DNA of 60,904 bases from an uncultured Bacilli bacterium (GCA_944332435.1 CALVJW010000004.1:1-60904), one strand, 5' to 3'; shown: positions 4,075 to 28,467, numbered from the stretch's first letter. Notes: generated by a model from the letters alone, not told the origin. A program made the numbers and translations.

Positions 4075-5580
4075 ATGAAGAAAAATGGTTTAGTAAAAGT
4101 AGCAGTCATTAGTTTTTTGATATTTGTTGTATTATCATGGATTATTCCAATTGGATCATATTCTTCAGGAACATTTACTGCTGGTGAGTTAGCACCAATC
4201 GGTATTTACGATATCGTAAAAATTGTTCTAGGAATATTTGGTAATTATACTATTTATGGACTTATTTTCCTATTAATTGGAGCCCTTTATGGTGTAATGA
4301 ATAAGACTGGAGTTTATTCAAATTTAGTAGAAGGAATTGCAAAAAAATTTAAAGGAAAAGAAAAGAGATTTTTAATTGTATCAATTGTTCTTTTTGCTCT
4401 TTTAGGTTCTCTTAGTGGTTTCAATATTGCATTATTTATCATTGTACCACTATTTGTAGCAGTTATTATGACACTTGGATATGATAAATTAACTGCATTA
4501 CTTGCAACTGTTGGATCTATTATTGTAGGTAATATTGGTTCAACTTATAGCTTTGAAATTAGTGGTTATTTAAATTTATATTATAGTTTAGATGTGAACT
4601 CTGATATTGCAACTAAAATAATTTTCTTAATAATTTTAATGTTATTAACGATTTTATTTGTTACAAAAAATGCAAAATTAACAAAAGTTCAAACTAAGAA
4701 GAAAGCGACTAAAGCAAAAACTACAAAAGGTAAAAAAGGAAAGAAAGAAGTGGAAGAAGAACCTGTTGTTGCTTGTGAAACAAAAACAGAAATTCCATTA
4801 TATGAAGTAAGTAATAATAAACAAAAGAAGAGTGTAGTACCACTTGCTATTATCTTTGGATTAAGTTTCCTTGTATTAGTAGTAGGATTATATAACTTTA
4901 GTTATGCATTCAATATTAGCTTTTTTGAAGATTTGTATACATCAGTAACTTCATTTGAAATTGCTAGTTTCCCAATTTTTAAATATTTACTAGGTTCTAT
5001 GAATCCATATGGTGCATGGAATTTAGGAGAAATTGGATTTGTATTAGTTATTACATCTTTATTAATTGGTTGGTTATATAGTTTAAAATTCAGTGAAATT
5101 ATTGATGCAATGAAATCTGGTATGAAAGAAATGGTAAATGTTGCTATTATTGCAATTTTAGCTAATCTTATTATGTATTTAGTATTACCATCATCACAAA
5201 CTGGATTACATTCAAATATTTTCATTACTATGAGTGATTTTATTTTAAATCTTACAAATCAATTTAACTGGTTTACTACTGGATTACAAGCATTTTTAGG
5301 AAGTTTCTTCTACAATGATTTTAAATATCTAGTAGATGCTAGTGCTGCTACAATTGCTACAATGCAAACGAATGCTTCTGTATATCCTGCAGTTGCAGTA
5401 TTATACCAAGCAATTCATGGTATTGTAATGTTATTTGCACCAGTAAGTTTAATTTTAATGGCTGGATTATCATATCTAAATGTGTCATTAAAAGATTGGT
5501 TCAAATACATTTGGAAATTCTTATTACAATTACTTTTATTAACTGTAGTTGTAGTTGCCATTATTTTAGCATTTGTATAA
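4075..5580 (+). CDS. Polytopic membrane transporter, YfcC/DcuC-like, with a Lys-rich cytoplasmic insert
   Basis: Many hydrophobic segments and a YfcC-like N-terminus ('WIIPIGSY'). Low-complexity 'KKKATKAKTTKGKKGKKE' loop. TGCTATAAT promoter and GGAGG RBS precede the ATG at 4075. Confidence 0.6.
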   Translation: MKKNGLVKVAVISFLIFVVLSWIIPIGSYSSGTFTAGELAPIGIYDIVKIVLGIFGNYTIYGLIFLLIGALYGVMNKTGVYSNLVEGIAKKFKGKEKRFLIVSIVLFALLGSLSGFNIALFIIVPLFVAVIMTLGYDKLTALLATVGSIIVGNIGSTYSFEISGYLNLYYSLDVNSDIATKIIFLIILMLLTILFVTKNAKLTKVQTKKKATKAKTTKGKKGKKEVEEEPVVACETKTEIPLYEVSNNKQKKSVVPLAIIFGLSFLVLVVGLYNFSYAFNISFFEDLYTSVTSFEIASFPIFKYLLGSMNPYGAWNLGEIGFVLVITSLLIGWLYSLKFSEIIDAMKSGMKEMVNVAIIAILANLIMYLVLPSSQTGLHSNIFITMSDFILNLTNQFNWFTTGLQAFLGSFFYNDFKYLVDASAATIATMQTNASVYPAVAVLYQAIHGIVMLFAPVSLILMAGLSYLNVSLKDWFKYIWKFLLQLLLLTVVVVAIILAFV

Positions 5581-5584
5581 AAAA

Positions 5585-5606
5585 AGAAACGAAAGTTTCT
5601 TTTTTT
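5585..5606 (+). terminator. Rho-independent terminator
   Basis: AGAAAC-GAAA-GTTTCT hairpin followed by a T tract. Confidence 0.75.
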
Positions 5607-5757
5607 AGTTAAAATGAAAGTTAATGATAGTTTAGAAGTAAGAATAGAGTTTTATTTTTTATGGAATTAGAGTAAGAACAATAGGCTAAAGATAAAATGA
5701 ATAAAATAGTTGTTAATTGATTACGATTTATAGTATAATAGTAACAGGTGATAAATT

Positions 5758-6072
5758 ATGGAATATATGCAATATATTATAATTATAATTATTTTATTAA
5801 TTATTGCGATTGCAATTGCAAAATCAAAGAAAAAAAACTTCAAAATTGAAGCAAATAAATTAGTTGAATATTTAGGTGGGAGAGCAAATATTTTAGAATA
5901 TGAATTTAATCAATCTCGTTTTGTTGTAACCCTTAATGATATTACACTTGTGAATAAAGAAGCAATTCAAAAGTTAGGGGCAAAAGGAATTGTAGAAATT
6001 GAAAATCAATTGAAAATTATTTTAGGTGATGATGTTCGTCAATTAAAACGTTATATTGAAACAATAAAATAA
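5758..6072 (+). CDS. Membrane-anchored PTS EIIB-like domain protein lacking the catalytic Cys motif
   Basis: N-terminal TM helix, then 'LVEYLGGRANI....F.VTLND......I..LGAKGIVE...QLKIILG', which resembles glucose-class EIIB. 'NQSRF' sits where the 'CATRLR' motif would be. Confidence 0.5.
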   Translation: MEYMQYIIIIIILLIIAIAIAKSKKKNFKIEANKLVEYLGGRANILEYEFNQSRFVVTLNDITLVNKEAIQKLGAKGIVEIENQLKIILGDDVRQLKRYIETIK

Positions 6073-6093
6073 GCAGAATTCTGCTTATTTTTT
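6071..6093. terminator. Bidirectional terminator between convergent genes
   Basis: Perfect palindrome AAGCAGAATTCTGCTT followed by ATTTTTT. Confidence 0.7.
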
Positions 6094-6223
6094 ATATCAT
6101 AGCGTTTAATACTTTATGGTAGTAGCGCATAAATTTTTCAGCAAATACCATAATATCTTCATCGGGAAAATGTTTACTAAAATATAATTTTGTAATTTCT
6201 AATGCTAATTGTTCTTTACTCAT
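6092..6223 (-). CDS. Small hypothetical protein (43 aa)
   Basis: AAAGGTGAT RBS 4 nt upstream of the ATG (MSKEQLALEI...). The listed 60-aa ORF probably starts too early. Confidence 0.4.
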   Translation of the reverse strand: MSKEQLALEITKLYFSKHFPDEDIMVFAEKFMRYYHKVLNAMI

Positions 6224-6329
6224 TTTTATCACCTTTCTATTGTTATTATACCAAAAATATGCAATCTCAGACAAGATTCGACAAAATTCGACATAATGAT
6301 ATTATAGAATGATGTCAGGAGGAATGAAA

Positions 6330-7568
6330 ATGACAATGGTTGAAGTTGTATTATTAAATATTATTTTAATTGTATTTCCACTAATATTATATTTATTTTA
6401 TTTAGCTTATAGTCAAAGTTTAACTGTAGAAATTAGAAATTTATTTTTAGATGTAGCATTATTTTCTTCATTTTATTTAACTTTAAAATATCCATTACAA
6501 GATGTTTTATATGTTAATTTGTTAACACTTAATATTCCATTATTAATTGCTTATTTAAGAAATAGAAAATTAATGATTTTTATTTTAACAATGATGATTA
6601 TTTCTTGTTATCATGAGATATTTGGTTGGAATTATATATTTTTAATGATAGAATATGTGGATTATTATTTATTGTCTATTTTATTATTAAATAAAAAAGG
6701 TAAAAATTATTGTTATTTAAATGTTTTTTTACTCATGAAATTATGTTTATTTACTTTCTTTATTACGCTTACAAAACAAGGCGTAGGAACAAGCTTTTTA
6801 GTTAATTTAGGATATTATGGTTTTCATATTATTTTGGTTGCATATTTTGTCGTATTTATGTTTCAAAAAGGAAATGATATTATTAAGATGCACATGTCTT
6901 TAAAAGAAATAAAGCAGGATGAGCAAATTAAAACTTCTTTATTTAAAATAACACATGAAATTAAAAATCCAATTGCTGTATGTAAAGGTTATTTAGATAT
7001 GTTTGATGTTAATAATATTGAACACAGTAGAAAATATATTCCTATTATGAAAGATGAAATAGAGAGAACTTTGTTTTTATTACAAGATTTTTTATCTATG
7101 ACCCGTGTAACGGTTGAAAAGGAAATGATTGATATTAATTTGTTATTAGAAGATGTAATTAGCAGTTATCAATTATTATTAAGATCACATAATATTAAAT
7201 TAGATATGGATTTAATCGATGATGAAATCTATATAAATGGAGATTATAATCGTTTATTACAAGTGTTTTTAAATATTATTAAAAATTCAATTGAAGCAAT
7301 TGAAAATAATGGTCGAATATCCGTTACTTCAAAATTAGTAAATGATGAAATTATAGTAGAAATAAAAGATAATGGTTGTGGGATTAGAAAAGAAGATTTG
7401 AAGCAAATTCGTACTCCCTTTTTTACAACAAAACAAAGCGGAACAGGTTTAGGGGTATCTCTTTCCTATGAGATAATTGAAGTACATGATGGTAGTATTG
7501 AATATCAATCGAATTATGGAGAGGGGACAAGTGTGACAATTCGTTTAGCAACATTATCCAGTATATAA
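6330..7568 (+). CDS. Orphan sensor histidine kinase with a multi-TM N-terminal domain
   Basis: H-box 'ITHEIKNPIA'. N/G boxes 'NIIKNSIEA', 'DNGCGI' and 'GTGLGVSLS'. No response regulator gene is adjacent. Start is the ATG 7 nt after AGGAGG. Confidence 0.85.
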   Translation: MTMVEVVLLNIILIVFPLILYLFYLAYSQSLTVEIRNLFLDVALFSSFYLTLKYPLQDVLYVNLLTLNIPLLIAYLRNRKLMIFILTMMIISCYHEIFGWNYIFLMIEYVDYYLLSILLLNKKGKNYCYLNVFLLMKLCLFTFFITLTKQGVGTSFLVNLGYYGFHIILVAYFVVFMFQKGNDIIKMHMSLKEIKQDEQIKTSLFKITHEIKNPIAVCKGYLDMFDVNNIEHSRKYIPIMKDEIERTLFLLQDFLSMTRVTVEKEMIDINLLLEDVISSYQLLLRSHNIKLDMDLIDDEIYINGDYNRLLQVFLNIIKNSIEAIENNGRISVTSKLVNDEIIVEIKDNGCGIRKEDLKQIRTPFFTTKQSGTGLGVSLSYEIIEVHDGSIEYQSNYGEGTSVTIRLATLSSI

Positions 7569-7580
7569 AAAGGATATCAA

Positions 7581-9263
7581 TTATTTTTTGATATCCATAA
7601 TGACAGGTAAGATAATTGGTTTTCTACCTGTTTTTTCATATATATAATTTGCTAGTTGATTTGTTACTTCGTTTTTAATATCGCTGTAGTTTAAATGTCC
7701 TTTTAACTTTGAATTAATTGCATTTTTACTAATCATTTCTAATTCTTTTAGTAATTCTAAATTATCATTTACAAGGACAAATCCACGGGTTGTAATGTTA
7801 GGGTTTAATAATAATTTTTTATGATTACTATCAATATTAGCAATGACAATCACAATTCCATCATTGGCCATTACTTTACGATCTTTCATAACGGCATTTC
7901 CTACATCACCAATTCTTTTTCCATCGACATAGATATCTCCAGCTTGTACCATTCCAGCGCGTTTAATCTTTCCTTTATACATAGAAAGAACATCACCATT
8001 TCCTAGTACAAATGTATTTTCTCGTGGAATATCACATAATGTTGCAATATCAGCATGTTTTTTTAGCATTCGATATTCTCCATGGAATGGCATAAAATAT
8101 TTTGGCTTTATTAATCTAAGCATCCATTTTAATTCTTCTTCACTACCATGTCCTGAAGTATGAATATCGCTTAGTGAAGTATTTGTATATACCTCAACAC
8201 CACGCATATATAATTTATTAATTGTTCTAGATATACTAAGTGCATTACCAGGAATTGGACTAGATGAGAAGATGACAACATCATCATCTTTTAATTTAAT
8301 TTGACGATGTGTTCCATTGGCAATTCTCGATAGGGCAGCAAGCGGTTCTCCTTGAGATCCCGTGCATAATAAGCATACTTTACTATCTGGTAATTTATTT
8401 GCTTCCTCTGGAGTAATAAAGATATCTTTATTTTTAATATATCCACCTTGAATAGAGATTTCAATATTTGTATCCATTGATCTACCAAATGTTGCGATTT
8501 TACGACCGTTTCTTTTACAAGTATCAACGATATGTTTTAATCTATAAATGTTAGAAGCAAATGTCGCAATAATAATTCTTCCATGATATCGTGAAAAGAT
8601 ATCACTAAGTGCATTATCTACTCTCGATTCACTCATACTCATACCTTCATTTAAAGCATTTGTTGAATCACTTAAGAGTAGGGTAACACCACGGTTTCCA
8701 ACGGCAGCCATTTTATGAATATTAGCCATTGGTCCAATTGGTGTTAAATCAAATTTAAAGTCTCCAGTTGTGACAATTCTTCCATTTGGTGTTGTGATAA
8801 CAATCCCATGTGAATCAGGTATGGAATGGGTTGTACGAATAAATTCTACTTCGATATTCTTGAATTTTACTTTTGTTGTTTCATCATAAGCAATTAAATT
8901 TTTATATTTGATATTTCTTTCATCTAATTTTTTTCTAATTAAACCAATCGCTTGGTTTGGTGCATAAATCACAGGAATATTTACTGTTTGTAGTAAAAAA
9001 GGAATACCTCCAATGTGATCTTCATGTCCATGTGTTATAAATAATGCTTTAATTTTCTTTTCGTTTTTCTTTAAAAAGGTAAAGTCAGGAATAACATAGT
9101 CAATTCCCATTAATTCATTTCCAGGAAATGTAATACCTGCATCCGTAATGATTAGTTCATTTTCATGCATAAAACAGTACATGTTTTTTCCCACTTCACC
9201 AAGTCCACCAAGGGCAAAAATCTTTGTGTCCTTGATTGGCTCATTGTTGTTAAATAATTTCAT
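7581..9263 (-). CDS. rnj: Ribonuclease J
   Basis: Metallo-beta-lactamase/beta-CASP 'ITHGHEDHIGG' motif, 560 aa, N-terminal 'IFALGGLGEVGKNMY'. Confidence 0.9.
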   Translation of the reverse strand: MKLFNNNEPIKDTKIFALGGLGEVGKNMYCFMHENELIITDAGITFPGNELMGIDYVIPDFTFLKKNEKKIKALFITHGHEDHIGGIPFLLQTVNIPVIYAPNQAIGLIRKKLDERNIKYKNLIAYDETTKVKFKNIEVEFIRTTHSIPDSHGIVITTPNGRIVTTGDFKFDLTPIGPMANIHKMAAVGNRGVTLLLSDSTNALNEGMSMSESRVDNALSDIFSRYHGRIIIATFASNIYRLKHIVDTCKRNGRKIATFGRSMDTNIEISIQGGYIKNKDIFITPEEANKLPDSKVCLLCTGSQGEPLAALSRIANGTHRQIKLKDDDVVIFSSSPIPGNALSISRTINKLYMRGVEVYTNTSLSDIHTSGHGSEEELKWMLRLIKPKYFMPFHGEYRMLKKHADIATLCDIPRENTFVLGNGDVLSMYKGKIKRAGMVQAGDIYVDGKRIGDVGNAVMKDRKVMANDGIVIVIANIDSNHKKLLLNPNITTRGFVLVNDNLELLKELEMISKNAINSKLKGHLNYSDIKNEVTNQLANYIYEKTGRKPIILPVIMDIKK

Positions 9264-9489
9264 ATTTCATCCTTTCTATCTTATTTTTTCATTCTTATAC
9301 CACCTAAATACCCGATTCAAACTATATAATAAATAAAAAAGATGGTAATCAGAATTTTAGTAAAATTCGTAAAAATCAACTATTACATTATAAACTATTT
9401 ATGGACTTTTGTCTAGTCATACGTGAAATGATTGACTTTTATTTATAGGATTATTATAATAATCTTTATTATGAATTATGGGAGAAAAT

Positions 9490-10524
9490 ATGATGAATGA
9501 AAAATCAATGTTAAATGAACAAAAATTATTAAAATTATTAAAAGGTGGCTCAACATTAGTAGAAATGAAGCAAGAACTAGGGTACCATGATCAGCAACTT
9601 GCTATGAAACTTCAATCTTTAATCAATCGCGGATATTTAATTAAGCGAAATTATCATAATGATAAAGTAATTTTTACTTTAGTTTCAGATTTTAAACAAT
9701 TTTCACAGAAAGATACTTTGAGTTTTCGTTTTCATGGAGAAGAATTAAATTGTATTTTTATATCTGATACACATATTGGTTCTAATAGAGAACAACTGAA
9801 ATGTATAAAGAATGTTTATGAGTATGCGAATGAAAAAGCAATTCCTCATATTTTTCATCTTGGTGATTTAGTAGAGGGATATAACTTTAACTTTAAAAGT
9901 GTGAACCAATATCCTTTTTCTAGTACAGAAGAAATGGTACAACATCTTATCAAACATTATCCTAAGATAGATGATGTTACTACAACTGTATTATTAGGAA
10001 ATCATGATAAATATAGTATTCAATATGATTCTTTTGATATTCGAAATATGATATCACAGAAAAGAGCCGATATTCATTTTGTGGGATATAAGCATGCATT
10101 AATATCAGTTTTAGATAAAAACATTGTATTACAACATCCAAGTGGTAAAAAAACGAATGAAGATTATCACCGTGAATGTTTTAATCAATATCAAAATCAA
10201 AAAATAGATTTTATTTTTAGGGGACATTGTCATGAATCTAAAGTTTTTGATTTTGATGGAATTCATACAATTCATGTACCAGCAATGATTAAAGGTAAAA
10301 AACAAGTTGGTGCTTGGCAATGTACCTTTTTTGCTTCGGATAACAAGCGAATTGAAAGAGTTGTGTTGCAACCGCTTATAATTGAACCTGTTGTTTTTCC
10401 AATCACGGAATTTGTGATTGATTGTAAAGAAGATTTTGAAGAAGAGTTAGAAAATACTAAAGAAAGGTATTCAGGACTTTCTCAAATAGAAAGATTTAAT
10501 AAGCGATATCAAAAGAAAAAATAA
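9490..10524 (+). CDS. Winged-helix plus calcineurin-like metallophosphoesterase fusion protein
   Basis: N-terminal roughly 70 aa resembles a wHTH ('ELGYHDQQLAMKLQSLINRGYLIKR'). Phosphoesterase motifs 'ISDTHIG', 'GDLVEG', 'GNHD' and 'GHCH'. Confidence 0.7.
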   Translation: MMNEKSMLNEQKLLKLLKGGSTLVEMKQELGYHDQQLAMKLQSLINRGYLIKRNYHNDKVIFTLVSDFKQFSQKDTLSFRFHGEELNCIFISDTHIGSNREQLKCIKNVYEYANEKAIPHIFHLGDLVEGYNFNFKSVNQYPFSSTEEMVQHLIKHYPKIDDVTTTVLLGNHDKYSIQYDSFDIRNMISQKRADIHFVGYKHALISVLDKNIVLQHPSGKKTNEDYHRECFNQYQNQKIDFIFRGHCHESKVFDFDGIHTIHVPAMIKGKKQVGAWQCTFFASDNKRIERVVLQPLIIEPVVFPITEFVIDCKEDFEEELENTKERYSGLSQIERFNKRYQKKK

Positions 10525-18018: not shown

Positions 18019-18112
18019 TTTACTTCTTTTTTTCTTTTATAAGGCAAATACCATATGCATAAATATACCTTGTTCATAAGATACATTAGATAAAGAAGGG
18101 AGAGAGAGGATT

Positions 18113-18262
18113 ATGTTTGGAAGACGTAGATGTTGCTGTAATCCTGGAATGGGTTTTGGAATGAATCAAGGACAATGTGGATGCAATCCACAACCAATTG
18201 TAGAACCTGCAATTAATAAATGTATTGAAAGAGAATTCTGTCATGAAGTACAACAAGATTGA
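18113..18262 (+). pseudogene. cotD: 5' segment of a split CotD-like spore coat protein gene (49 codons, then a premature TGA inside the insert)
   Basis: GGGAGAGAGAGGA RBS then ATG. Encodes 'MFGRRRCCCNPG...QPIVEPAINKCIEREFCHEVQQ', which is colinear with the N-terminal half of Bacillus CotD proteins ('P.IVHPTKCCV.H.F', from memory). Too short to appear in the ORF track. Confidence 0.75.
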
Positions 18263-18264
18263 TA

Positions 18265-18276
18265 ATTTATGATAGA
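18265..18276 (+). repeat. Left terminal inverted repeat ATTTATGATAGA
   Basis: Exact reverse complement of 22292..22303; lies 7 nt inside the left CAAG core. Confidence 0.85.
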
Positions 18277-18398
18277 CCAAATAAAATGAGATGAAATAAG
18301 TACGAAATAGAAGGCATTTTGATGAAGAATGTCTTTTTGTATGATATAATAGTTGTGTGTATATATAAATTATCGTGAAATTAAAAGAGGTGTAATAA

Positions 18399-19436
18399 GT
18401 GAGTGAAGATGTAATCGAAAAAAAAGAAAAAATAGAATTAATTATCACAATATTATTTGGTTGGTTAGGAATTCATAAGTTTATTGACAAACAATATGGA
18501 TTAGGATTAGTTTATTTTTTTTCATTAGGTTTATTTGGAATTGGATGGATATATGATATTTGTGCTTGTGTTTATTATTCATCAGATTCTTTTAAGTTAA
18601 TTAAGAATAGCATAAAAGAAAACACTAAAAAATGTAATGAATTAAATGATCATATTGAAGAACTAAAAAATACTTACGCTGATATAAAACGTATAGATTA
18701 TGGAACAGCTAATTATTATGATAATAGTAATTGGAATTATAAAAGACCTGCATTAAAAAAATATCAAGAAGCAAAAAATGTTTATAATTGTTCTAGAACT
18801 GTTTGTAGTAATGCTCGTATGCAACCGTTTAAATATATTTGTAAATATTTTAATATAAAAGCAACTGAAGAAAATTTAGAAAAATTTGAAAATGTACTTA
18901 ATGATTTTGATGCAGCAGAGCAAGGTAAAAGTTTATTAAAAAATGAAAGAGATGAAATTGTTAATAGTGTAAGTGATAAAATACCAATTTGGATAAAACT
19001 TTTTAATAGGACTAACATGATTAAAAAGTTAGGTTTTAATTCAATTGATTTTAGTCAACTATATTTTCCAAGATATACATTTAATTACATAAGTTCTGGT
19101 GGAAATAGTTCAATGCAATGCAGTATTGTATTTGATATAGAAAATCTAAATAAATTTGTTGAATATCTATCAAGTATCATAAAGTTTAAAAAAAGTGCAG
19201 CTGGACAAAGAGCATTAATGACAAGTAAATTAAGAGAACAAATTAAAAAACGAGATAATTATACTTGTTGTAAGTGTGGAAATTCTATAGAAAAAGAACC
19301 TAATTTATTATTAGAAATAGATCATATTATTCCAATATCAAAAAATGGATTAACTACAGAATCTAATTTACAAACATTGTGTTGGAAATGTAATAGAAAA
19401 AAAGGATCTAAACTTGATGACTCTGAAACAAATTAA
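18399..19436 (+). CDS. TM2-domain membrane protein with a C-terminal HNH endonuclease domain
   Basis: N-terminal 'GWLGIHKF..KQYGLGLVYFFSLGLFGIGWIYD' is TM2-like. C-terminal 'CCKCG...LEIDHIIPISKNG....NLQTLCWKCNRKKG' is an HNH motif. GTG start behind AAAAGAGGTG; TATGATATAAT -10 upstream. Confidence 0.75.
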   Translation: MSEDVIEKKEKIELIITILFGWLGIHKFIDKQYGLGLVYFFSLGLFGIGWIYDICACVYYSSDSFKLIKNSIKENTKKCNELNDHIEELKNTYADIKRIDYGTANYYDNSNWNYKRPALKKYQEAKNVYNCSRTVCSNARMQPFKYICKYFNIKATEENLEKFENVLNDFDAAEQGKSLLKNERDEIVNSVSDKIPIWIKLFNRTNMIKKLGFNSIDFSQLYFPRYTFNYISSGGNSSMQCSIVFDIENLNKFVEYLSSIIKFKKSAAGQRALMTSKLREQIKKRDNYTCCKCGNSIEKEPNLLLEIDHIIPISKNGLTTESNLQTLCWKCNRKKGSKLDDSETN

Positions 19437-19475
19437 AAATTTTGTTGATATATACCTAATTTAATATCCCAAAAC

Positions 19476-19499
19476 ACCTATATTTTTATAGGTTTTTTT
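19476..19499 (+). terminator. Rho-independent terminator after the TM2-HNH gene
   Basis: ACCTATA-TTTT-TATAGGT hairpin followed by TTTTTT. Confidence 0.7.
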
Positions 19500-19515
19500 A
19501 TCAGGATAAGAGGAT

Positions 19516-19577
19516 GGTACCACCATACTTATTTTCGCCTTATTTTAAACTGAAAATTGTGGTACCAAACTTATTTT
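19516..19577 (+). repeat. Two direct copies of GGTACCA-(1-4 nt)-ACTTATTTT, 45 bp apart
   Basis: Copies at 19516..19535 and 19561..19577. The second runs into the palindrome TTTTGCA-CT-TGCAAAA (19574..19589). Confidence 0.6.
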
Positions 19578-19934
19578 GCACTTGCAAAATTCATCCAAAA
19601 ATCAATAAAAATATTGATTTTACCCTTTAAAAATAAGTCATTGATATATCCCAACCTTAACAAAAGGTTATTTAAAATTGGGATATCTATTATTTTGATA
19701 AAAAATTAATTAACACTTAATTATGTATCCAAAAAAGTATCCGAAAATTATCCTTGTTATACATCTAGTTACAATATAAAATGTAGTAAAGTGGAATTAA
19801 TAGTATAATTTCATTTTTTATTAGGAGTGATTTTATGTTGTTTATAATTGGAAAATATAAAGGTTTGCTGTTATTAAGAAAGGCTTGTATAGTCTTTTTT
19901 ATTTTGTATTAACATAAATTTAATAGTGATTAAT

Positions 19935-20105
19935 ATGAATAAATATAAGATAAATATTATATATAATGATTCTGGTCCAAATATAAATGACATATTAATT
20001 AAAACTTTAAAAATAGAAATATCAAAAAATCTTAAAAACATGATTTTGAAAAATGATAAAAATGTGCTACCGTTAAATAGTACTTATTTATCTCGTAGAA
20101 AGTGA
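19935..20105 (+). CDS. Small ORF (56 aa) immediately upstream of the recombinase gene
   Basis: Encodes 'MNKYKINIIYNDSGPNINDIL...'. The stop is 6 nt before the recombinase ATG. Weak RBS; not in the ORF track because it is under 60 aa. Confidence 0.3.
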   Translation: MNKYKINIIYNDSGPNINDILIKTLKIEISKNLKNMILKNDKNVLPLNSTYLSRRK

Positions 20106-20111
20106 GGTTAA

Positions 20112-21680
20112 ATGAATAAAGAGATAAATATACTTTCTAATGTTGGATTATACATTAGACTATCACGCGAAGATGATGATAAAATTGAGATGAGTGAAAG
20201 TATTACAAATCAAAAAAGTTTATTAACTCAATATGTTAAAGAAAATAATTTAAGACTTGTTGATATTTATATTGATGATGGATATAGTGGTACCAATTTT
20301 GATAGACCAGAATTTAAAAGAATGATAGATGATATTTTAAAGGGAAAAATTAATATGGTTATTACCAAAGATATGTCCCGTTTAGGACGAGATTATATTG
20401 GAACAGGAGAATTAATTGAAAAATTTTTTCCAACTCATGGAGTTAGATATATAGCAGTTACTGATAATATAGATACATATTTAGATAATTCCAATAATGA
20501 TATTGCGCCTTTTAAAGCTATAATGAATGATATGTATGCTAAAGATATATCTAAAAAGATTAAATCAAGTTTAAGAGCAAAACAAAAAGAAGGAAAATGG
20601 GTAGGGGGGAGAACGCCTTTTGGCTATAAGAAAGATCCTAATGATAAAAATAAATTAGTAATTTTTGAAGAGCAAGCCGTTATTGTTAGAAGAATATTTG
20701 ATATGTGTTTAGAAGGATTATCATGTCATAAAATAGCTTTAAGATTAACAAATGAAAAAATAAAAACACCAGCAGAATATTATAGTTTTGAATGGAAAAA
20801 TAGTTATCATTTTAATTATGGATTATGGCATGCGAAAACAATTAGAGATATTTTAACGAATAGAATGTATATTGGTGACTTAGTCCAAAACAAAAGAAAT
20901 AAAGTTAATTATAAAATAAAAAAGATTATTAAAAACAATCCCAAAAATTATATTGTTGTAGAAAACACTCATGAACCTATTATTGAAAAAGAAATATTTT
21001 ATGAAGTACAAAAAAGAATTCCTAAAAATGTAGGGAGAAATGAAAAAAAAGAAACACATTTATTAGATGGCTTATTATATTGTGGTGATTGTGGTCATAG
21101 ATTATCAATTACATCAAGAAGGAAAAAAGATAACAGATGTTATACAATATGTAATTATTATCGAACTTATATGAAATATCATGTATGTACAACTCATTCC
21201 AATAATTATGATGTATTAGAAAAAGCCATTATAGATACACTAAAGGAATTATGTATAAATTATATTGATAAAAAAAAGATAAAGGAAGAAACATTAAAAA
21301 ATATAAATATCGATAATAAAAAAAGTATAAAAAAAGAGATATCGGTACTTGAAAATGAAATCAATAACATTAATAGTAATTTAGATAACATCTATCTTGA
21401 TAAATTAAATAAAGTGATAACCGAAGAACAATTTAATAGGGTTAAAATTAAGTTAGAAAATGGATTAAAGATGAAACAAGATAGATATATAGAATTAGTT
21501 AGTAATATTAACGAAAAAAATAGTAATGAAGTGTGTCATAAAAAAATAGAGAAGTTTATTGATGAATTTTTATCGATGCAAAAGCTTAATAGAGAATTAA
21601 TTGTCAATTTAGTTGATAAAATAGAAATATTTGAAGATAAAAGTATTAAAGTTAGAGTTAGTTATAATGAAAAGGAATAA
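20112..21680 (+). CDS. Large serine recombinase
   Basis: Resolvase catalytic region 'LYIRLSREDDD...SITNQK', then 'DDGYSGTNFDRPEF', 'VITKDMSRLGRDY', recombinase domain 'GGRTPFGYKKD', zinc ribbon 'LLYCGDCGHRL' and a C-terminal coiled coil. 522 aa. Confidence 0.92.
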   Translation: MNKEINILSNVGLYIRLSREDDDKIEMSESITNQKSLLTQYVKENNLRLVDIYIDDGYSGTNFDRPEFKRMIDDILKGKINMVITKDMSRLGRDYIGTGELIEKFFPTHGVRYIAVTDNIDTYLDNSNNDIAPFKAIMNDMYAKDISKKIKSSLRAKQKEGKWVGGRTPFGYKKDPNDKNKLVIFEEQAVIVRRIFDMCLEGLSCHKIALRLTNEKIKTPAEYYSFEWKNSYHFNYGLWHAKTIRDILTNRMYIGDLVQNKRNKVNYKIKKIIKNNPKNYIVVENTHEPIIEKEIFYEVQKRIPKNVGRNEKKETHLLDGLLYCGDCGHRLSITSRRKKDNRCYTICNYYRTYMKYHVCTTHSNNYDVLEKAIIDTLKELCINYIDKKKIKEETLKNINIDNKKSIKKEISVLENEINNINSNLDNIYLDKLNKVITEEQFNRVKIKLENGLKMKQDRYIELVSNINEKNSNEVCHKKIEKFIDEFLSMQKLNRELIVNLVDKIEIFEDKSIKVRVSYNEKE

Positions 21681-21716
21681 TTAATACTATAATATGTATA
21701 TATGGGAGGAGTTAAG

Positions 21717-22289
21717 ATGAAAATACCATTAAGATTTCAAATTACAGAATTTGACTGTGGAACGTTAGCATTGCAAAATGCTATTAGTTATTTATTTGAA
21801 AGAGAAACAATTCCAGCTGAAGTTATAAGAGCAATCTCTAAATATACGCTTGATTGTTATGATGATTGTGGAAATATTGGTCAAGGTGGAACGAGTAAAG
21901 AGGCTGTTGATAAAATGACAAAATGGTTTTGTAATTATGTAAAAAAACATAATTTTAAAATTGAAGTTCAACATTTACTCGGTGTTGATGTAAAACTAAA
22001 AGAAATTGAAGAATGTATAAGTAATAATGGGTGTGTTTTATTAAGAACGTATCAAACGGAAGAACATTACGTTTTAATAACAAATATTGATGATAATTTT
22101 GTATATTTATGGGATTCCTATTATTTAGACGAAAATTATTATGAAACAGATACAGAGGTTAAAATTGTTTTGGATAAACCATTTCATTATAATTGTGTTA
22201 TTACTAGAGCAAGATTACTGAGCAATACTAAAGATGATTTTGCTTTAGGCCCTATAGAGAATAGAGAATGTGTATTATTTAATAAATAA
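21717..22289 (+). CDS. Stand-alone C39-like (papain-fold) cysteine peptidase domain protein
   Basis: 'Q..EFDCGTLALQNAISYL' matches the Q-x5-CG pattern, followed by 'EEHYVLITNIDDN' (His then Asp), as in C39 bacteriocin-processing peptidases. No ABC transporter domains. GGGAGGAG RBS before the ATG at 21717. Confidence 0.6.
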   Translation: MKIPLRFQITEFDCGTLALQNAISYLFERETIPAEVIRAISKYTLDCYDDCGNIGQGGTSKEAVDKMTKWFCNYVKKHNFKIEVQHLLGVDVKLKEIEECISNNGCVLLRTYQTEEHYVLITNIDDNFVYLWDSYYLDENYYETDTEVKIVLDKPFHYNCVITRARLLSNTKDDFALGPIENRECVLFNK

Positions 22290-22291
22290 AA

Positions 22292-22303
22292 TCTATCATA
22301 AAT
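22292..22303 (+). repeat. Right terminal inverted repeat TCTATCATAAAT
   Basis: Exact reverse complement of 18265..18276; lies 3 nt inside the right CAAG core. Confidence 0.85.
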
Positions 22304-22306
22304 ACT

Positions 22307-22456
22307 CAAGGACATATTTGTCCAATTCATACTTATGTAATAAATCGTCATATTTATAATCATACGTATACACCACAATTTACTTGTTCAGAAGAAAACC
22401 AAGTTGTTAACAATGACCCAGGTTGCTGTGGTGGAATGACAAATCAAAATTTTTAA
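22307..22456 (+). pseudogene. cotD: 3' segment of the split CotD-like spore coat protein gene (no start codon of its own)
   Basis: The open frame reads 'QGHICPIHTYVINRHIYNHTYTPQFTCSEENQVVNNDPGCCGGMTNQNF*'. This is colinear with the CotD C-terminal half ('VPHIHP.HT..VNH..Y.H.HY.PHT.S..N.V.N', from memory). No ATG or RBS; the frame continues from the left half across CAAG. Confidence 0.75.
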
Positions 22457-22530
22457 AAATAAAAAGGATTTCCCTTTTTATTTTTTTTGATATATGGTAA
22501 TATGAGGTAAATAGAATGTAGGTGTTTTTG

Positions 22531-22929
22531 ATGAAAGTGTTAACTATTAAAGAACCATGGGCAACTTTAATTATTGATGGATATAAAAAATATGAATTTC
22601 GTAGTTGGAAAACGTCTTATCGTGGAAAAATATTAATTCATGCTGCTATGAGTTTAGAGAAAGATGTGATGGAACGATTCAAAGATTATTCATTAAATTG
22701 TCAAAAGGGAGCAATCATAGGGGAAGCAGAACTTCAAGATTGTATTTTAGTTGATAAGGAATTTAATGAAAGATTACGTACCATTGATCCGGTTGTTTAT
22801 GGAAAAAGTAATCACACAGAAACTTATGCATGGAAATTAGAACACGTAAAAAAATATAAAAATCCGATTCCAATAAAGGGAAAATTAGGATTATGGAATT
22901 ATGACGGTGAGATAAAAAATGACATATAA
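22531..22929 (+). CDS. ASCH domain protein
   Basis: 'MKVLTIKEPWATLIIDGYKKYEFRSW' is a typical ASCH N-terminus; about 130 aa. Confidence 0.7.
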   Translation: MKVLTIKEPWATLIIDGYKKYEFRSWKTSYRGKILIHAAMSLEKDVMERFKDYSLNCQKGAIIGEAELQDCILVDKEFNERLRTIDPVVYGKSNHTETYAWKLEHVKKYKNPIPIKGKLGLWNYDGEIKNDI

Positions 22930-22995: not shown

Positions 22996-23649
22996 TTATT
23001 TTTCATGTAAGTATTCTTCTAGGGTTATTTGTTTTTTATAAATGGTAGTTGCAACCTCTTTACCGACATATCGATAATGCCAAGGCTCATATTTAAATCC
23101 AGTAATATGCTCTTTTCCACTAGGGTACCTCATAATAAAGCCATATTTATGTGCATTTTCTTTCATCCATGTAAAAGCTTTTGTTTCTGCAAATCGATTA
23201 TAATCCATATTTTCTCCCATTACATCAATTGATAGTCCAGTTTGATGTTCAGAATGTCCTGGTCTAGCACTACAATTATCCGCATATTTTTTGCCTTTTT
23301 CTCTTACGTAGTATTGATATAAATTTTTTTGATAGTGATAACTCCGAAAGGTTGATACTGCAATAATTTGATAGCCCAATTGTTTGGCATCACTACTTAA
23401 TTGTTCAAAAGCTTTTTTTACTTCTTTTCTTATATATTTATAATCATTTGCATACATAACATCTATCTTTTCTAAATCATAGGGAATATAGTTACTAGGT
23501 AAACAGTGAAATTTATTTACAAGAACTAAATTGGAATTAGGATTTTTAATTAGAGTTATATTTTGATAAAACTCTCTTTTTTGATTATCGTGGTTGACAG
23601 TTAAAATAAGAAGAATAAAGAGAATGATTTGTAGTCTATTTTTATACAT
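22996..23649 (-). CDS. M15B (VanY-type) D-alanyl-D-alanine carboxypeptidase family protein
   Basis: 'SARPGHSEHQTGLSIDV' and 'EPWHYRYVG' zinc-peptidase motifs, with an N-terminal signal or anchor sequence. Confidence 0.85.
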   Translation of the reverse strand: MYKNRLQIILFILLILTVNHDNQKREFYQNITLIKNPNSNLVLVNKFHCLPSNYIPYDLEKIDVMYANDYKYIRKEVKKAFEQLSSDAKQLGYQIIAVSTFRSYHYQKNLYQYYVREKGKKYADNCSARPGHSEHQTGLSIDVMGENMDYNRFAETKAFTWMKENAHKYGFIMRYPSGKEHITGFKYEPWHYRYVGKEVATTIYKKQITLEEYLHEK

Positions 23650-26138: not shown

Positions 26139-27299
26139 TTACTTCTTGTTTAGATAATATTCATAATATTCTTCGTATGTAATATTTTCTTTCTGAATCT
26201 TTTCTGCCATTTCTTTTCCAACATAACGATAGTGCCAAGATTCATAATGATATCCCGTAATATATTCTTTTTCTTTTGGATAACGTAGAATAAATCCATA
26301 GCGATAAGCATTATTAATTAACCAAGTAAATTCACTTGTTCCTTCAAAAGTATCAAAATTACTACGATTACTTGTAATATCTAAAGCGAGTCCTGTTTGA
26401 TGTTCAGAATGCCCTGGTCTAGCAGAATAACTATCTGCCCATTCTAATCCATGTTCATTTTGATAGCGATTATAGATAATATTTTGTGTTTCATAACTGA
26501 GATATCCAGAAGTAATACTAAGTAGAAGTCCTTCTTTTTTTGCATCTTGTTTCATCTGTTGATAAGCATCGGAAACTTCTTTTTTTGCATATTCGTTTCC
26601 TTCTATGATTACTAAATCTTCGGGTACATAATCTTTATCTAGTTGATAATATTTATTAACTAAGATTAAATTTCCTTTTTCTAAATCTGTTTTTTTAATA
26701 TTGGTGTAAAATTCATAATCTAAGTTGGCATTTACTTCTCTTACTATATCAACGGTATCTTTTTTTGTCTTATTGTAATAATTGATATAACGAATCAAGT
26801 GATCTTCTATATAATATTTTTCTTTTTGTAGTAGGGGAATAATATCAGAATATGGAATATTAGCATTTACGAGTGTTACGGATGTATTTGCATCTAATTT
26901 AGAACGGCTAGCAAATGCCATGTATTCTTTGATTTTCTTTTCATTATATTCATTATTTTCATCTAAATCGTTATTAATAATAAATACTGTTTCTTCACTG
27001 GTTGTTTTATGTGATTTTTGGTAAACAAAATATTCTTTAAATTGGTTTTTATTAAATTCTTCTTCTTTAATTAATGATTGGATATTTTTGTTGTAATCAA
27101 TTGTTTTAATTGTTTCAATATCTTTTTGGTTCAGTGTTTTAATTAATTTTACTTCTTCTTTATTATAACCAATTTTCTTTAATTGATAATCATCTGTTTT
27201 TTGATATTCTAAATAGCGATAAAAATTAATACCACCAATTATGATTAAAAAAATAGTTATAATAAGGAGTATGATATTTTTCGTCTGTTTCTTTTTCAT
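26139..27299 (-). CDS. M15B (VanY-type) carboxypeptidase family protein with TM anchor and long spacer
   Basis: 'SARPGHSEHQTGLALDI' and 'ESWHYRYVG'. Start moved to MKKKQTK behind AGGTGAT. Confidence 0.85.
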   Translation of the reverse strand: MKKKQTKNIILLIITIFLIIIGGINFYRYLEYQKTDDYQLKKIGYNKEEVKLIKTLNQKDIETIKTIDYNKNIQSLIKEEEFNKNQFKEYFVYQKSHKTTSEETVFIINNDLDENNEYNEKKIKEYMAFASRSKLDANTSVTLVNANIPYSDIIPLLQKEKYYIEDHLIRYINYYNKTKKDTVDIVREVNANLDYEFYTNIKKTDLEKGNLILVNKYYQLDKDYVPEDLVIIEGNEYAKKEVSDAYQQMKQDAKKEGLLLSITSGYLSYETQNIIYNRYQNEHGLEWADSYSARPGHSEHQTGLALDITSNRSNFDTFEGTSEFTWLINNAYRYGFILRYPKEKEYITGYHYESWHYRYVGKEMAEKIQKENITYEEYYEYYLNKK

Positions 27300-27384
27300 T
27301 CTATCACCTAATAATATTATATAGAAAAGGATAGAGTAGTGCAAATCTTTTTTAGATAAAAACGTATGAGTTTTTTCATACGTT

Positions 27385-28344
27385 TTATTTTTCTAGATAA
27401 TAGGCGTAATATTCATCGTAAGTAATTCCTAGATCATGAATTTTAGTAGCAACGTCTTTACCTACATAGCGGTAATGCCAAGATTCATAACTATATCCAG
27501 TAATATCTTCTTTTCCCTTTGGAAATCTTAAGATAAATCCATATTTATGAGCATTTTTTTGTAACCATTTAAATTCTTCAGTTTGATCAAATTCATTGTT
27601 ATAACTATTATAAGTTACAATATCAAGGGCAAGTCCTGTTTGATGCTCAGAGTGTCCTGCACGAGCAGCTCTGCTATCGGCATCTTCTTCTCCAGTACTA
27701 TTTGCGATACTATTCCATACTTCATCTTGTGATTGATAATCCCGATAAGAGGAAGTCACAATTAATGTTAATCCTTCTTTGTTAGCAGCATTCCACATAC
27801 TACGATATGCTTCATATACTTTTTTAGAAATTTGTTGTCCTTCGTATGCATATTGACTAGAAATTTCTACAATTTGATCTGGTTGAAAGTTTTTATTTAA
27901 TTTATGATATTTGTTAACTAGAATTAAATCACCTTTACTAGTATCAGTATTTTCTACATGTGTATAATATTCATAATCACGGTTAACATTTACCATAGTA
28001 ACAACATCTTTTACACTTAAATCACGATGCTTGTTTGCATAGTTTAAGTAACGATCTAAGTTTTTAAATATAAAATATCGCTGTGTTAGTAATTTTGGAA
28101 TGATTCGATTATAACGAAGTTCTTTTATTTTATCTAATTGTTCTTCATTATTTTTTGTCTTTTTTAAAATTGTTTCTACATCACTTTTATTATATCCTTT
28201 ATCTAGGAGTTTATATTCGTCACTCATACGATAAGTAATAGTATTAATTAAATATACCAGGATAATGATTCCTAATATCGTTCCTCCAATAAAGATTTTT
28301 CCAAATTTAGATAAGCGAATTCTTTTTTTCTTTCTAGTATTCAT
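27385..28344 (-). CDS. M15B (VanY-type) carboxypeptidase family protein with TM anchor
   Basis: 'RAGHSEHQTGLALDI' and 'ESWHYRYVG'. Start moved to MNTRKKK behind AAGGTGAT. Confidence 0.85.
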   Translation of the reverse strand: MNTRKKKRIRLSKFGKIFIGGTILGIIILVYLINTITYRMSDEYKLLDKGYNKSDVETILKKTKNNEEQLDKIKELRYNRIIPKLLTQRYFIFKNLDRYLNYANKHRDLSVKDVVTMVNVNRDYEYYTHVENTDTSKGDLILVNKYHKLNKNFQPDQIVEISSQYAYEGQQISKKVYEAYRSMWNAANKEGLTLIVTSSYRDYQSQDEVWNSIANSTGEEDADSRAARAGHSEHQTGLALDIVTYNSYNNEFDQTEEFKWLQKNAHKYGFILRFPKGKEDITGYSYESWHYRYVGKDVATKIHDLGITYDEYYAYYLEK

Positions 28345-28467
28345 GATTATCACCTTAGTTTTATTATAACCAAATTTTTACAATAATACAACTTGATATG
28401 GATTAATTTGTATAATATTATCAGAATGGTAAATGGTAATAATAAATGATAAAATAGGTGAGATAAG

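What the first reader, a model, noticed from the sequence alone, without database searches (positions are those of the whole stretch)
18113..22456. CotD-like spore-coat gene split in frame by a 4.05-kb serine-recombinase element (skin-like intervening element)
Seen directly: a 49-codon ORF with a strong RBS (18113..18262) encodes MFGRRRCCCNPG...QPIVEPAINKCIEREFCHEVQQ, followed by D and a stop. About 4 kb downstream, a start-less open frame (22307..22456) encodes QGHICPIHTYVINRHIYNHTYTPQFTCSEENQVVNNDPGCCGGMTNQNF. Both halves contain CAAG with CAA read as a codon (18254..18257 and 22307..22310). Deleting the 4053 bp between the two cores fuses them in frame into a 96-aa protein: ...CIEREFCHEVQQGHICPIHTYVINRH.... 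This fusion is colinear with Bacillus CotD inner spore-coat proteins (P.IV.P...C....F.....H.I.P.HT...N...Y.H.Y.P, from memory), and the break falls between two conserved blocks. The insert carries a 522-aa large serine recombinase. Established precedent: mother-cell-specific excision by large serine recombinases rebuilds sigK (skin element, SpoIVCA) and spsM (SP-beta, SprA) in B. subtilis. Inference: this is a compact intervening element that may reconstitute cotD during sporulation. I am not aware of a described cotD-splitting element of this gene content, but I cannot search. The intact sigK in the same window suggests that sporulation regulation is retained.
Basis: partly seen in the sequence, partly recalled or inferred. 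Interest (0 to 1): 0.9.

Follow-up and report, generated by a model that had tools for sequence, protein, structure and literature searches.

The report
Mobile element splitting spore-coat gene cotD
A 4.06-kb mobile element with its own serine recombinase sits inside the spore-coat gene cotD of an uncultured gut bacterium, at the same codon as related elements in about 60 other species, and probably cuts itself out during sporulation as the known skin element does in sigK, though excision is not shown.

Summary
Near-identical element-free contigs (99.3-99.7% identical flanks) show the crossover is the CA of the invariant His48 codon (18254-18255 and 22313-22314). Excision removes 4059 bp and gives a 94-aa CotD, not 4053 bp and 96 aa. 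The corrected protein passes the Pfam CotD threshold as one colinear hit.

The insert is one member of a large family. In 59 of 62 related loci from species-representative genomes of uncultured gut Bacilli, a 63-91% identical large serine recombinase lies in cotD at the same codon. The ends are conserved, and attP is dyad-symmetric around CA. Elements are 2.8-8.1 kb, not phage-like, and carry variable defence or addiction cargo.

The constant core is a ~58-aa ORF abutting the recombinase, preceded by a conserved CATA-type box. This is the layout of skr-spoIVCA in B. subtilis skin. Recombinase similarity does not track host similarity, so the elements move horizontally. cotD has a conserved sigma-K-type -10 box, and sigK is intact in the window.

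Mother-cell excision is a well-founded inference but is not shown; no attP junction was found. I found no description of a cotD-splitting element in the searchable literature.

The parts
18075..18083 (+). cotD promoter -10 box CATAAGATA, which matches the sigma-K consensus CATAnnnTA
   Evidence: An exact CATAnnnTA box sits 12-29 nt before the cotD start codon in most of 36 related loci. Five of the 36 anchored boxes do not begin with C, and one match lies at another distance. The consensus itself is from my own knowledge of B. subtilis sigma-K promoters. The sigma-factor assignment is an inference.
18113..18255 (+). 5' part of cotD: codons 1-47 plus CA of the His48 codon. As it stands the ORF runs on to a stop at 18260..18262.
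   Evidence: Identical in register to the intact gene in L001 and L002.
18254..18255 (+). Left copy of the crossover dinucleotide CA (attL). The window-specific overlap ACA is 18253..18255.
   Evidence: Alignment with empty-site contigs. CA is the only base pair shared by attL and attR across about 45 loci.
18256..18278 (+). Left-end recombinase half-site AGATTGATAATTTATGATAGACC (the right arm of attP)
   Evidence: Conserved as (A/T)G(T/A)GTGATAATTTATGATAGA in the related elements. Inverted repeat of the right end.
18294..18350 (+). Conserved left-end control block: the AAATAAGTACGAA box (18294..18306), a hairpin plus T-run (18309..18338), and an extended -10 TGATATAAT (18342..18350)
   Evidence: Alignment of 25 elements: TATAAT is invariant, TG before it is nearly so, and the hairpin is kept with a few compensatory changes. 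Its roles as a terminator for cotD read-through and a vegetative promoter for cargo genes are inferred.
18399..19436 (+). Cargo gene: 345-aa protein with a TM2 membrane domain and a C-terminal HNH nuclease
   Evidence: Pfam TM2 (40.9 bits) and HNH (49 bits). Weak PtuB-like and restriction-enzyme HNH matches in PADLOC. Not shared with the other elements.
19462..19934 (+). Non-coding region conserved with the closest relatives of the element. It contains the CATAAATTT box at 19913..19921, 13 nt before the start of the small ORF.
   Evidence: 91-92% identical to L003 and L056 from 19462 onward. The CATAA(A/G)TT(T/A) box is kept at this place in 35 of 37 elements, although the rest of the upstream sequence differs between subfamilies.
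19935..20105 (+). Small ORF 'f1' (56 aa from the ATG; ORF from GTG 19926): candidate recombination directionality factor or recombinase partner
   Evidence: Present in 37 of 38 elements, always abutting or overlapping the recombinase start. dN/dS about 0.37, and the other frames are closed. A homologue also precedes the sister-clade recombinases. 1475 clusters in the protein database, all about 58 aa and unnamed. No match in Pfam, PHROGs, NCBIfam or PADLOC.
20112..21680 (+). Large serine recombinase, 522 aa
   Evidence: Pfam Resolvase (92.7 bits), Recombinase (85.2) and Zn_ribbon_recom (39.7). phrog_95 integrase, E 1e-112. The N-terminal domain is closest to TnpX among solved structures. The YIRLSR motif has Ser18 at the catalytic position (read from the sequence).
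21702..22289 (+). Cargo gene: 195-aa protein with weak similarity to C39-like peptidases
   Evidence: Pfam DUF3335 (22.3 bits) and Peptidase_C39_2 (18.9 bits), both below threshold. No PHROGs or PADLOC match.
22290..22312 (+). Right-end recombinase half-site AATCTATCATAAATACTCAAGGA (the left arm of attP)
   Evidence: Conserved as TCTATCAAAAAAGGGCAAGGA in 51 related loci. 19 of 30 positions are dyad-symmetric with the left end around CA.
22313..22314 (+). Right copy of the crossover dinucleotide CA (attR), the first two bases of the His48 codon
22313..22456 (+). 3' part of cotD (codons 48-94 and the stop codon), followed by a hairpin plus T-run at 22461..22488

Best explanation
Window 18256..22314 is a 4059-bp non-phage integrative element. 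It is inserted by its own large serine recombinase into the CA of the invariant His48 codon of cotD, a small cysteine- and histidine-rich inner spore-coat protein gene with a sigma-K-type promoter.

Shown:
- The insertion is precise, and the empty site exists in near-identical strains.
- The element belongs to a family that occupies exactly this site in about 60 species of uncultured gut Bacilli and moves between them.
- The constant core of the family is the two att half-sites plus a small ORF (f1) abutting the recombinase gene.

Inferred:
- In vegetative cells and in the forespore the element stays integrated, and cotD is silent anyway.
- In the mother cell, the f1-recombinase pair is transcribed from the conserved CATA-type (sigma-E/K-like) promoter.
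- f1 acts as a directionality factor, as Skr does for SpoIVCA. attL x attR recombination at CA releases a 4059-bp circle and rebuilds an intact 94-aa cotD in time for coat assembly.
- Because the mother cell lyses, the spore keeps the element. The element therefore costs the host little while carrying defence or addiction cargo. In the window that cargo is a TM2-HNH nuclease and a C39-like protein; in relatives it is Fic/Doc, MazEF, NERD, GNAT and restriction-modification genes.
For: Structure:
- The empty-site contigs L001 and L002 have 99.3-99.7% identical flanks and an uninterrupted 94-aa gene.
- The corrected composite scores 24.1 bits on PF11122 against a threshold of 22, as one stretch covering residues 28-90.
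- 112 homologues were found, mostly full length.

Family:
- 59 of 62 loci whose recombinase is at least 63% identical show a cotD junction at the same codon.
- attP is dyad-symmetric about CA: 19 of 30 positions in the window, family mean 16.1 against 8.6 in shuffles.

Mobility:
- There is no correlation between recombinase identity and host CotD identity (Spearman rho 0.013, p 0.73).
- For example, L007 and L043 have 99.8% identical recombinases but CotD cores only 66% identical.

Hints of developmental control:
- cotD has an exact CATAnnnTA -10 box before its start codon in most of the 36 loci.
- sigK is intact in the window.
- f1 is in 37 of 38 elements, is under purifying selection (dN/dS 0.37), and travels with the recombinase into a sister clade that has another target.
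- The CATAA(A/G)TT(T/A) box before f1 is kept in 35 of 37 elements across otherwise unrelated upstream sequence.
- In B. subtilis skin, the directionality factor skr is likewise a small ORF immediately upstream of and overlapping spoIVCA, and both are read from a sigma-E promoter (PMC6957869).
- Both cotD halves are open and conserved in 37 of 37 split loci.
Against: - There is no direct sign of excision. Scans for the attP junction found nothing in IMG/VR or in the JGI metagenome contigs. All genuine left-end hits were attL in cotD or a decayed copy.
- The empty-site contigs differ from the window by SNPs, including two CotD residues. They are element-free strains, not excision products.
- Because the elements spread recently, intact halves need not mean selection in the split state.
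- f1 resembles no known directionality factor, and it shares an operon with the recombinase. That raises the question of how integration, which should need the recombinase alone, is achieved.
- The sigma-factor assignments rest on consensus matching only. The window's own f1 upstream region has no convincing -35 element.
- The recombinase's N-terminal domain is closest to TnpX. From my own knowledge, TnpX excises and inserts without a partner and without any link to sporulation.
- In B. subtilis, cotD mutants still make spores (my own knowledge). An inactivating insertion might therefore simply be tolerated.
Confidence: 0.6

Rival explanations
1. This is an ordinary site-specific mobile element that uses the conserved cotD sequence only as a safe landing site. 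The insertion knocks out a dispensable coat gene. Excision happens only for transfer or loss and is not tied to sporulation.
For: The elements spread horizontally, and related hosts carry different elements. The cargo is typical of selfish islands: Fic/Doc, MazEF, NERD, HNH. The recombinase N-terminal domain is TnpX-like. No excised form was found. cotD is non-essential in B. subtilis (my own knowledge).
Against: The target is a late mother-cell gene, which is the pattern for every characterised sporulation-gene intervening element (PMC5595907, PMC6957869, PMC10747680). The f1-recombinase pair has a conserved CATA-type box rather than a sigma-A -10 box. The layout copies skr-spoIVCA. None of 37 split cotD genes shows any decay. 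No transfer genes (relaxase or Mob) were seen among the ORFs scanned.
Confidence: 0.32
2. This is a dead remnant: the element can no longer excise, and cotD is a pseudogene in this strain.
For: Only the absence of a detected excised form, and the window element's rather poor RBS and -35 element for f1.
Against: The recombinase is full length with all three domains and the catalytic-serine motif. f1 is open and under purifying selection in the family. Both att half-sites match the family consensus. Both cotD halves are intact. A second sample carries the same attL (L100).
Confidence: 0.06
3. This is an assembly chimera or a chance in-frame coincidence.
For: None found.
Against: The same junction occurs at the same codon in about 60 independent genome assemblies and in 14 further metagenome contigs. 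The exact attL is present in another sample. The empty site exists.
Confidence: 0.01

Closest known systems
skin element of Bacillus subtilis (sigK-intervening; recombination unit attL-skr-spoIVCA-attR)
   Same: A large serine recombinase element splits a mother-cell sporulation gene in frame. A small ORF lies immediately upstream of and abutting the recombinase gene. In skin both are read from a mother-cell sigma-factor promoter (PMC6957869). Galperin and colleagues report that skin elements in different species share only the recombinase (bioRxiv 10.1101/2022.02.25.481979). The same is seen here: only f1 and the recombinase are shared.
   Different: The target is cotD, not sigK. The size is 2.8-8.1 kb against 48 kb. 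There are no phage genes. f1 has no detectable similarity to any named family. The window has an intact sigK. Excision is not demonstrated here.
gin element in gerE of Bacillus cereus ATCC 10987
   Same: A non-prophage intervening element in a very small late sporulation gene (gerE is 225 bp; cotD is 285 bp). It carries defence genes (restriction-modification). A serine recombinase (GirC) plus a small factor (GirX) are needed, and both are sporulation-specific (PMC5595907).
   Different: gin is 28.6 kb and has three recombinases. It is confined to a few B. cereus-group strains. The cotD elements are several-fold smaller, have one recombinase, and occur in dozens of species.
SP-beta / phi3T prophages (spsM, kamA) and the yin element (yabG)
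   Same: Integration by a serine integrase into a sigma-K-dependent spore-envelope gene, with reconstitution on excision (PMC4191935, PMC6957869, PMC10747680).
   Different: Those are complete or near-complete prophages of tens to more than 100 kb. In SP-beta the integrase is constitutive and only the directionality factor is sporulation-controlled, and the two genes sit at opposite ends of the element.
Tn4451/Tn4453 mobilisable transposons (TnpX)
   Same: Small (about 6 kb) elements moved by a large serine recombinase through a circular intermediate. The best structural-database match of the recombinase's N-terminal domain is TnpX (E 6e-25).
   Different: No Mob/oriT gene was found. The crossover dinucleotide is CA rather than the GA of Tn4451 (my own knowledge). 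Targeting is strict to a single gene. A conserved partner ORF is present.

Membership tests
CotD inner spore-coat protein family (Pfam PF11122) | The whole protein scores above Pfam's gathering threshold as one colinear match | tested here: met
   The corrected 94-aa composite scores 24.1 bits against 22, residues 28-90 on profile positions 2-64. The 3' half alone scores 20.5 bits and the 5' half gives nothing. The intact orthologues P0001, P0005 and P0059 score 25-29 bits.
CotD inner spore-coat protein family (Pfam PF11122) | Late mother-cell (sigma-K) expression and location in the spore coat | tested here: inconclusive
   An exact CATAnnnTA box lies before the start codon in most of the 36 loci. 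This is a consensus match only. Location in the coat cannot be tested with these tools.
Large serine recombinases (integrases) | Resolvase catalytic domain, Recombinase domain and zinc-ribbon domain, with a coiled-coil C-terminal part | tested here: met
   Pfam PF00239 (92.7 bits), PF07508 (85.2) and PF13408 (39.7). phrog_95 integrase, E 1e-112. The YIRLSR motif has Ser18 (from the sequence).
Large serine recombinases (integrases) | A 2-bp crossover at the centre of an imperfectly dyad-symmetric attP, identical in attB | tested here: met
   CA is shared by attL and attR in all loci. In the window the 12-bp perfect arms TCTATCATAAAT and ATTTATGATAGA are equidistant from CA. 19 of 30 positions are symmetric, and the family mean is 16.1 against 8.6 in shuffles.
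Sporulation-gene intervening elements (skin, SP-beta, vfbin, vrin, gin, yin) | Interrupts the coding sequence of a mother-cell sporulation gene, and precise deletion restores the ORF | tested here: met
   The uninterrupted gene is found with the same neighbours.
Sporulation-gene intervening elements (skin, SP-beta, vfbin, vrin, gin, yin) | Carries its own site-specific recombinase and a cognate directionality factor | tested here: inconclusive
   The recombinase is present. f1 is a positional and co-inheritance candidate with no sequence match to known factors.
Sporulation-gene intervening elements (skin, SP-beta, vfbin, vrin, gin, yin) | Excision is specific to sporulation and the mother cell | not testable with these tools
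   Only indirect evidence: the conserved CATA-type box before f1. No attP junction was found in the collections.
Sporulation-gene intervening elements (skin, SP-beta, vfbin, vrin, gin, yin) | Prophage or prophage-like gene content (the classical definition before gin) | tested here: not met
   No phage structural or replication genes. The cargo is HNH/TM2 and C39-like in the window, and Fic, NERD, MazEF, GNAT and ASCH in relatives. No phage record has a recombinase more than 60% identical.
Tn4451-type mobilisable transposons | TnpX-type recombinase together with a Mob/oriT module | tested here: not met
   The N-terminal domain resembles TnpX. None of the element ORFs scanned matches a relaxase or Mob family.

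The most novel reading that the evidence does not exclude
A very abundant family of 3-8-kb 'mini-skin' elements hitch-hikes across dozens of uncultured gut Bacilli species inside cotD. At least 1475 distinct f1 clusters are known. The elements are invisible to the host because a sigma-E/K-driven f1-recombinase operon excises them in the mother cell. On this reading, f1 is a new family of recombination directionality factors, and the elements act as developmentally excised defence or addiction islands. A sister recombinase-f1 unit serves 40-56-kb prophages that abut a LysM-repeat gene.
Probability: 0.45. Interest if true: 0.75.

Novelty: new variant of a known kind. Interest (0 to 1): 0.66.

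Why it matters
- It would add a new gene to the short list of sporulation genes known to be rebuilt by DNA rearrangement. The papers I could search list sigK, spsM, spoVFB, spoVR, gerE, kamA and yabG.
- Unlike those mostly strain-limited cases, it would show one such system spread over many species of an uncultured gut lineage, with strict targeting of a single codon.
- The family offers a minimal natural recombination unit: two roughly 25-bp half-sites, a 58-aa ORF and a 520-aa recombinase. Many natural variants exist, which is useful for studying directionality control and as a source of orthogonal integrases.
- It is indirect evidence that these uncultured Bacilli, often labelled Tenericutes or Mollicutes, sporulate.
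- Practically, genome annotation of these organisms will miscall cotD as two fragments or miss it. The corrected junction strings are what must be used to look for excision in reads.

Tried and rejected
- A search for the excised circle found nothing. The attP pattern had no hits in IMG/VR or in the JGI metagenome contigs.
- A left-end pattern search gave 17 metagenome loci. Of these, 14 are attL in cotD, 2 are eukaryote-like chance matches (L090, L096), and 1 is a decayed nested copy (L091).
- L003, a 4.3-kb contig, was checked as a possible free circle. It is only a fragment with other cargo.
- Vertical inheritance (an ancient domesticated element) was rejected by the lack of correlation between recombinase identity and host identity.
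- Read-through from the cotD promoter as the excision trigger is considered unlikely, because a conserved hairpin plus T-run follows attL. That hairpin is weak, and the terminator scan did not call it.
- No Rfam family matches in the element.
- No second cotD copy is present in the window.
- f1 has no match in Pfam, PHROGs, NCBIfam or PADLOC.
- The 5' half of the sister clade's LysM target gene was not found. The apparent intact gene P0124 turned out to be an internal ORF call on a contig that starts inside the recombinase.
- The exact recombinase and the C39-like protein are not on record in the contig index.

Full report
**1. Checking the observation**

A 49-codon ORF (18113..18262) lies behind a strong RBS. 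A start-less frame runs to 22456. Between them are four co-oriented ORFs:
- a TM2+HNH protein at 18399..19436;
- a small ORF at 19926/19935..20105;
- a 522-aa large serine recombinase at 20112..21680, with Resolvase, Recombinase and Zn_ribbon_recom domains;
- a weakly C39-like protein at 21702..22289.

The insert has 23.7% G+C against 28.1% for the window.

**2.

In an alignment of 14 of them, every one lacks the 'QG' that the CAAG fusion introduces.

The closest homologue, P0001 (94 aa), is encoded on two contigs with the same neighbours as the window: an M16 peptidase pair upstream, and ASCH, VanY and a P-type ATPase downstream. Their flanks are 99.3-99.7% identical to the window, and they break at window 18255 and 22312.

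The DNA alignment shows the intact site GAAGTACAACATATTTGTCC. The window's left arm matches through ...ACAACA and the right arm from ACATATT..., so the overlap is ACA. Excision therefore removes 4059 bp and yields MFGRRR...CHEVQHICPIH...NQNF (94 aa).

This corrected protein scores 24.1 bits on Pfam PF11122 (threshold 22) as one stretch, against 22.4 bits for the 96-aa version.

**3. It is one member of a large family that always sits in cotD**

Scanning one genome per bacterial species with the recombinase returned 80 loci, all from uncultured gut MAGs labelled Bacilli, Tenericutes, Mollicutes or Erysipelotrichaceae.
- Of the 62 loci whose recombinase is 63-91% identical, 59 show a cotD half next to the element. 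The three exceptions are short contigs.
- The break is always after ...HEV(P/Q) and before H(V/I)CP.
- The element's ends are conserved. The right end is TCTATCAAAAAAGGGCAAGGA|CA, and the left end is CA|(A/T)G(T/A)GTGATAATTTATGATAGACC.
- Only CA, the first two bases of the invariant His codon, is common to both junctions, so CA is the crossover dinucleotide.
- The reconstructed attP is dyad-symmetric about CA. In the window 19 of 30 positions are symmetric. The family mean is 16.1 against 8.6 in shuffles. attB is much less symmetric.
- Fourteen further attL junctions were found in metagenome contigs. The window's exact attL occurs in another sample.

**4. Anatomy of the family**

In 38 elements with both ends, sizes range from 2.8 to 8.1 kb, and all real genes point the same way as cotD.

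Left end:
- The att half-site is followed by a conserved box, a hairpin with a T-run, and an invariant extended -10 (TGnTATAAT).
- I read this as a stop for cotD read-through followed by a vegetative promoter for the cargo genes. This is an inference.

Cargo:
- It is variable: Fic/Doc in 30 of 38 elements, NERD plus a Top1-type zinc ribbon, MazEF, GNAT, ASCH and restriction-modification genes in relatives.
- In the window the cargo is TM2-HNH and a C39-like protein.
- None of it is phage-like, and no phage record carries a recombinase more than 60% identical.

Constant core:
- It is a small ORF, f1 (about 58 aa), abutting or overlapping the recombinase start, present in 37 of 38 elements.
- f1 is a real gene. 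dN/dS is about 0.37 and the other frames are closed.
- It has 1475 clusters in the protein database, all unnamed.
- A homologue precedes the recombinase in a sister clade that has a different target.

**5. Mobility**

Recombinase identity and host CotD-core identity are uncorrelated (rho 0.013, p 0.73).
- L007 and L043 have 99.8% identical recombinases in hosts whose CotD cores are 66% identical.
- Hosts with 97-98% identical CotD carry recombinases only 72-84% identical.
- The elements are therefore gained and lost often. The window and L001 are one such presence/absence pair at about 99.5% identity.

**6. How it most likely works**

Established precedent: skin/sigK, SP-beta/spsM, phi3T/kamA, vfbin/spoVFB, vrin/spoVR, gin/gerE and yin/yabG are all excised by element-encoded serine recombinases, which rebuild a mother-cell gene.

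Five observations here point the same way.
- The target has a sigma-K-type -10 box (CATAnnnTA), exact in most of the 36 loci and at 18075..18083 in the window. The window also holds an intact sigK.
- The f1-recombinase arrangement copies skr-spoIVCA of skin, where the small upstream overlapping ORF is the directionality factor and both genes are read from a sigma-E promoter.
- A CATAA(A/G)TT(T/A) box lies 12-20 nt before the f1 start in 35 of 37 elements. This includes the window's subfamily, whose upstream sequence is otherwise unrelated. CATA is the hallmark of sigma-E and sigma-K -10 regions, and the box is a poor sigma-A -10.
- Both cotD halves are open and conserved in 37 of 37 split loci.
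- A related recombinase-f1 unit lies directly against a start-less LysM-repeat frame. That frame looks like the 3' half of another split gene, but its identity and any link to sporulation are unknown.

Against this:
- Nothing shows excision directly.
- Recent spread weakens the fourth point above.
- The promoter calls are consensus matches only.
- f1 resembles no known directionality factor.
- TnpX-like recombinases can act without a partner.

I put the structural part at more than 0.95 and the developmental-excision part at about 0.6.

**7. Comparison with what is known, and novelty**

Full-text searches for cotD together with 'intervening element', 'serine recombinase' or 'intervening' found no description of a cotD-splitting element. 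Recent papers list the known targets without cotD.

- The mechanism class is known.
- The nearest relative in layout is skin's skr-spoIVCA unit.
- The nearest in lifestyle is the non-phage gin element.
- What is new is the target gene, the compactness (down to 2.8 kb), the uncharacterised f1 family, the host lineage, and above all the breadth and horizontal mobility of a family with single-codon specificity.
- I therefore rate it a new variant of a known kind.

**8. Verdict**

- The junction, the element size and the predicted junction strings need correcting.
- Sporulation-timed excision is the best-supported explanation but remains to be shown.

Noticed in passing
L065-L082 (e.g. L071 7530..7985, L075 7530..); IMG/VR loci L106, L107: A sister clade of the recombinase (56-58% identical), with its own f1 homologue, is not in cotD. 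In 14 of 18 loci its stop codon is followed at once by a start-less frame KCYIKIVSGD(T/S)LW..., which encodes 1-3 LysM repeats. This looks like the 3' half of another split gene. In IMG/VR the same unit sits at the end of 39.5-kb and 56.5-kb viral contigs that carry an endolysin, so these are probably prophages. The 5' half and the identity of the target gene were not found.
   Followed up: partly
L010 and L079 (both from MAG CAKPJN01): One genome carries both a cotD-type element (L010) and a LysM-type element (L079). The two recombinase-f1 units therefore coexist in one host.
   Followed up: no
window 19462..19934: A 470-nt non-coding stretch upstream of f1 is 91-92% conserved with L003 and L056. 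It holds repeats: ATATCCCAA at 19464 and 19646, its inverse TTGGGATAT at 19678, and GGTACCA at 19516 and 19561. It may be a regulatory region. No Rfam match.
   Followed up: no
Related loci, about 40-90 nt upstream of f1 (e.g. L007, L009, L015; alignment): In the main subfamily a long conserved palindrome (TAATACTAAAT...GTGTAA...TTACAC...ATTTAGTATTA) overlaps the presumed -35 region of the CATA box before f1. It could be an operator or an RNA hairpin. It is absent from the window's subfamily.
   Followed up: no
window about 18043..18049 and the same place in related loci: A conserved (T/A)AGGC(A)A motif lies about 25-35 nt upstream of the cotD -10 box in many species. It resembles the GerE-box core TRGGY as I recall it. 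Not tested.
   Followed up: no
window 22522..22929; element cargo family f15 in L013, L023, L026, L028, L035, L057: The host gene just downstream of cotD encodes an ASCH-domain protein. The first cargo gene of several related elements also begins with an ASCH domain (38% identical, E 3e-23, fused to a transglutaminase-like part). The homology is real, but this is not a recent capture.
   Followed up: partly
L091 2206..4225: A decayed or nested copy: f1 and a recombinase truncated at 126 aa, followed by a second element left end and a Fic gene, with no cotD half next to it.
   Followed up: partly
L105 (IMG/VR, 19.4-kb contig) 4899..9569: A 70%-identical recombinase lies next to a reverse-transcriptase gene and a 1371-aa Ig-domain protein. 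My pattern searches found no cotD half or family-type end there. This may be a different integration context.
   Followed up: no
L100 (ERZ28614407), contig end corresponding to window about 19817: The only other contig with the window's exact attL breaks inside the non-coding region upstream of f1. This may reflect strain variation or a repeat there.
   Followed up: no
window 22996..23649, 26139..27344, 27385..28353 (minus strand): Three VanY-family D-Ala-D-Ala carboxypeptidase genes and a PBP5-type carboxypeptidase cluster just downstream of cotD. Domains are as listed for the identical genes of L001. So this host, from a lineage often labelled 'Tenericutes', clearly makes peptidoglycan.
   Followed up: no
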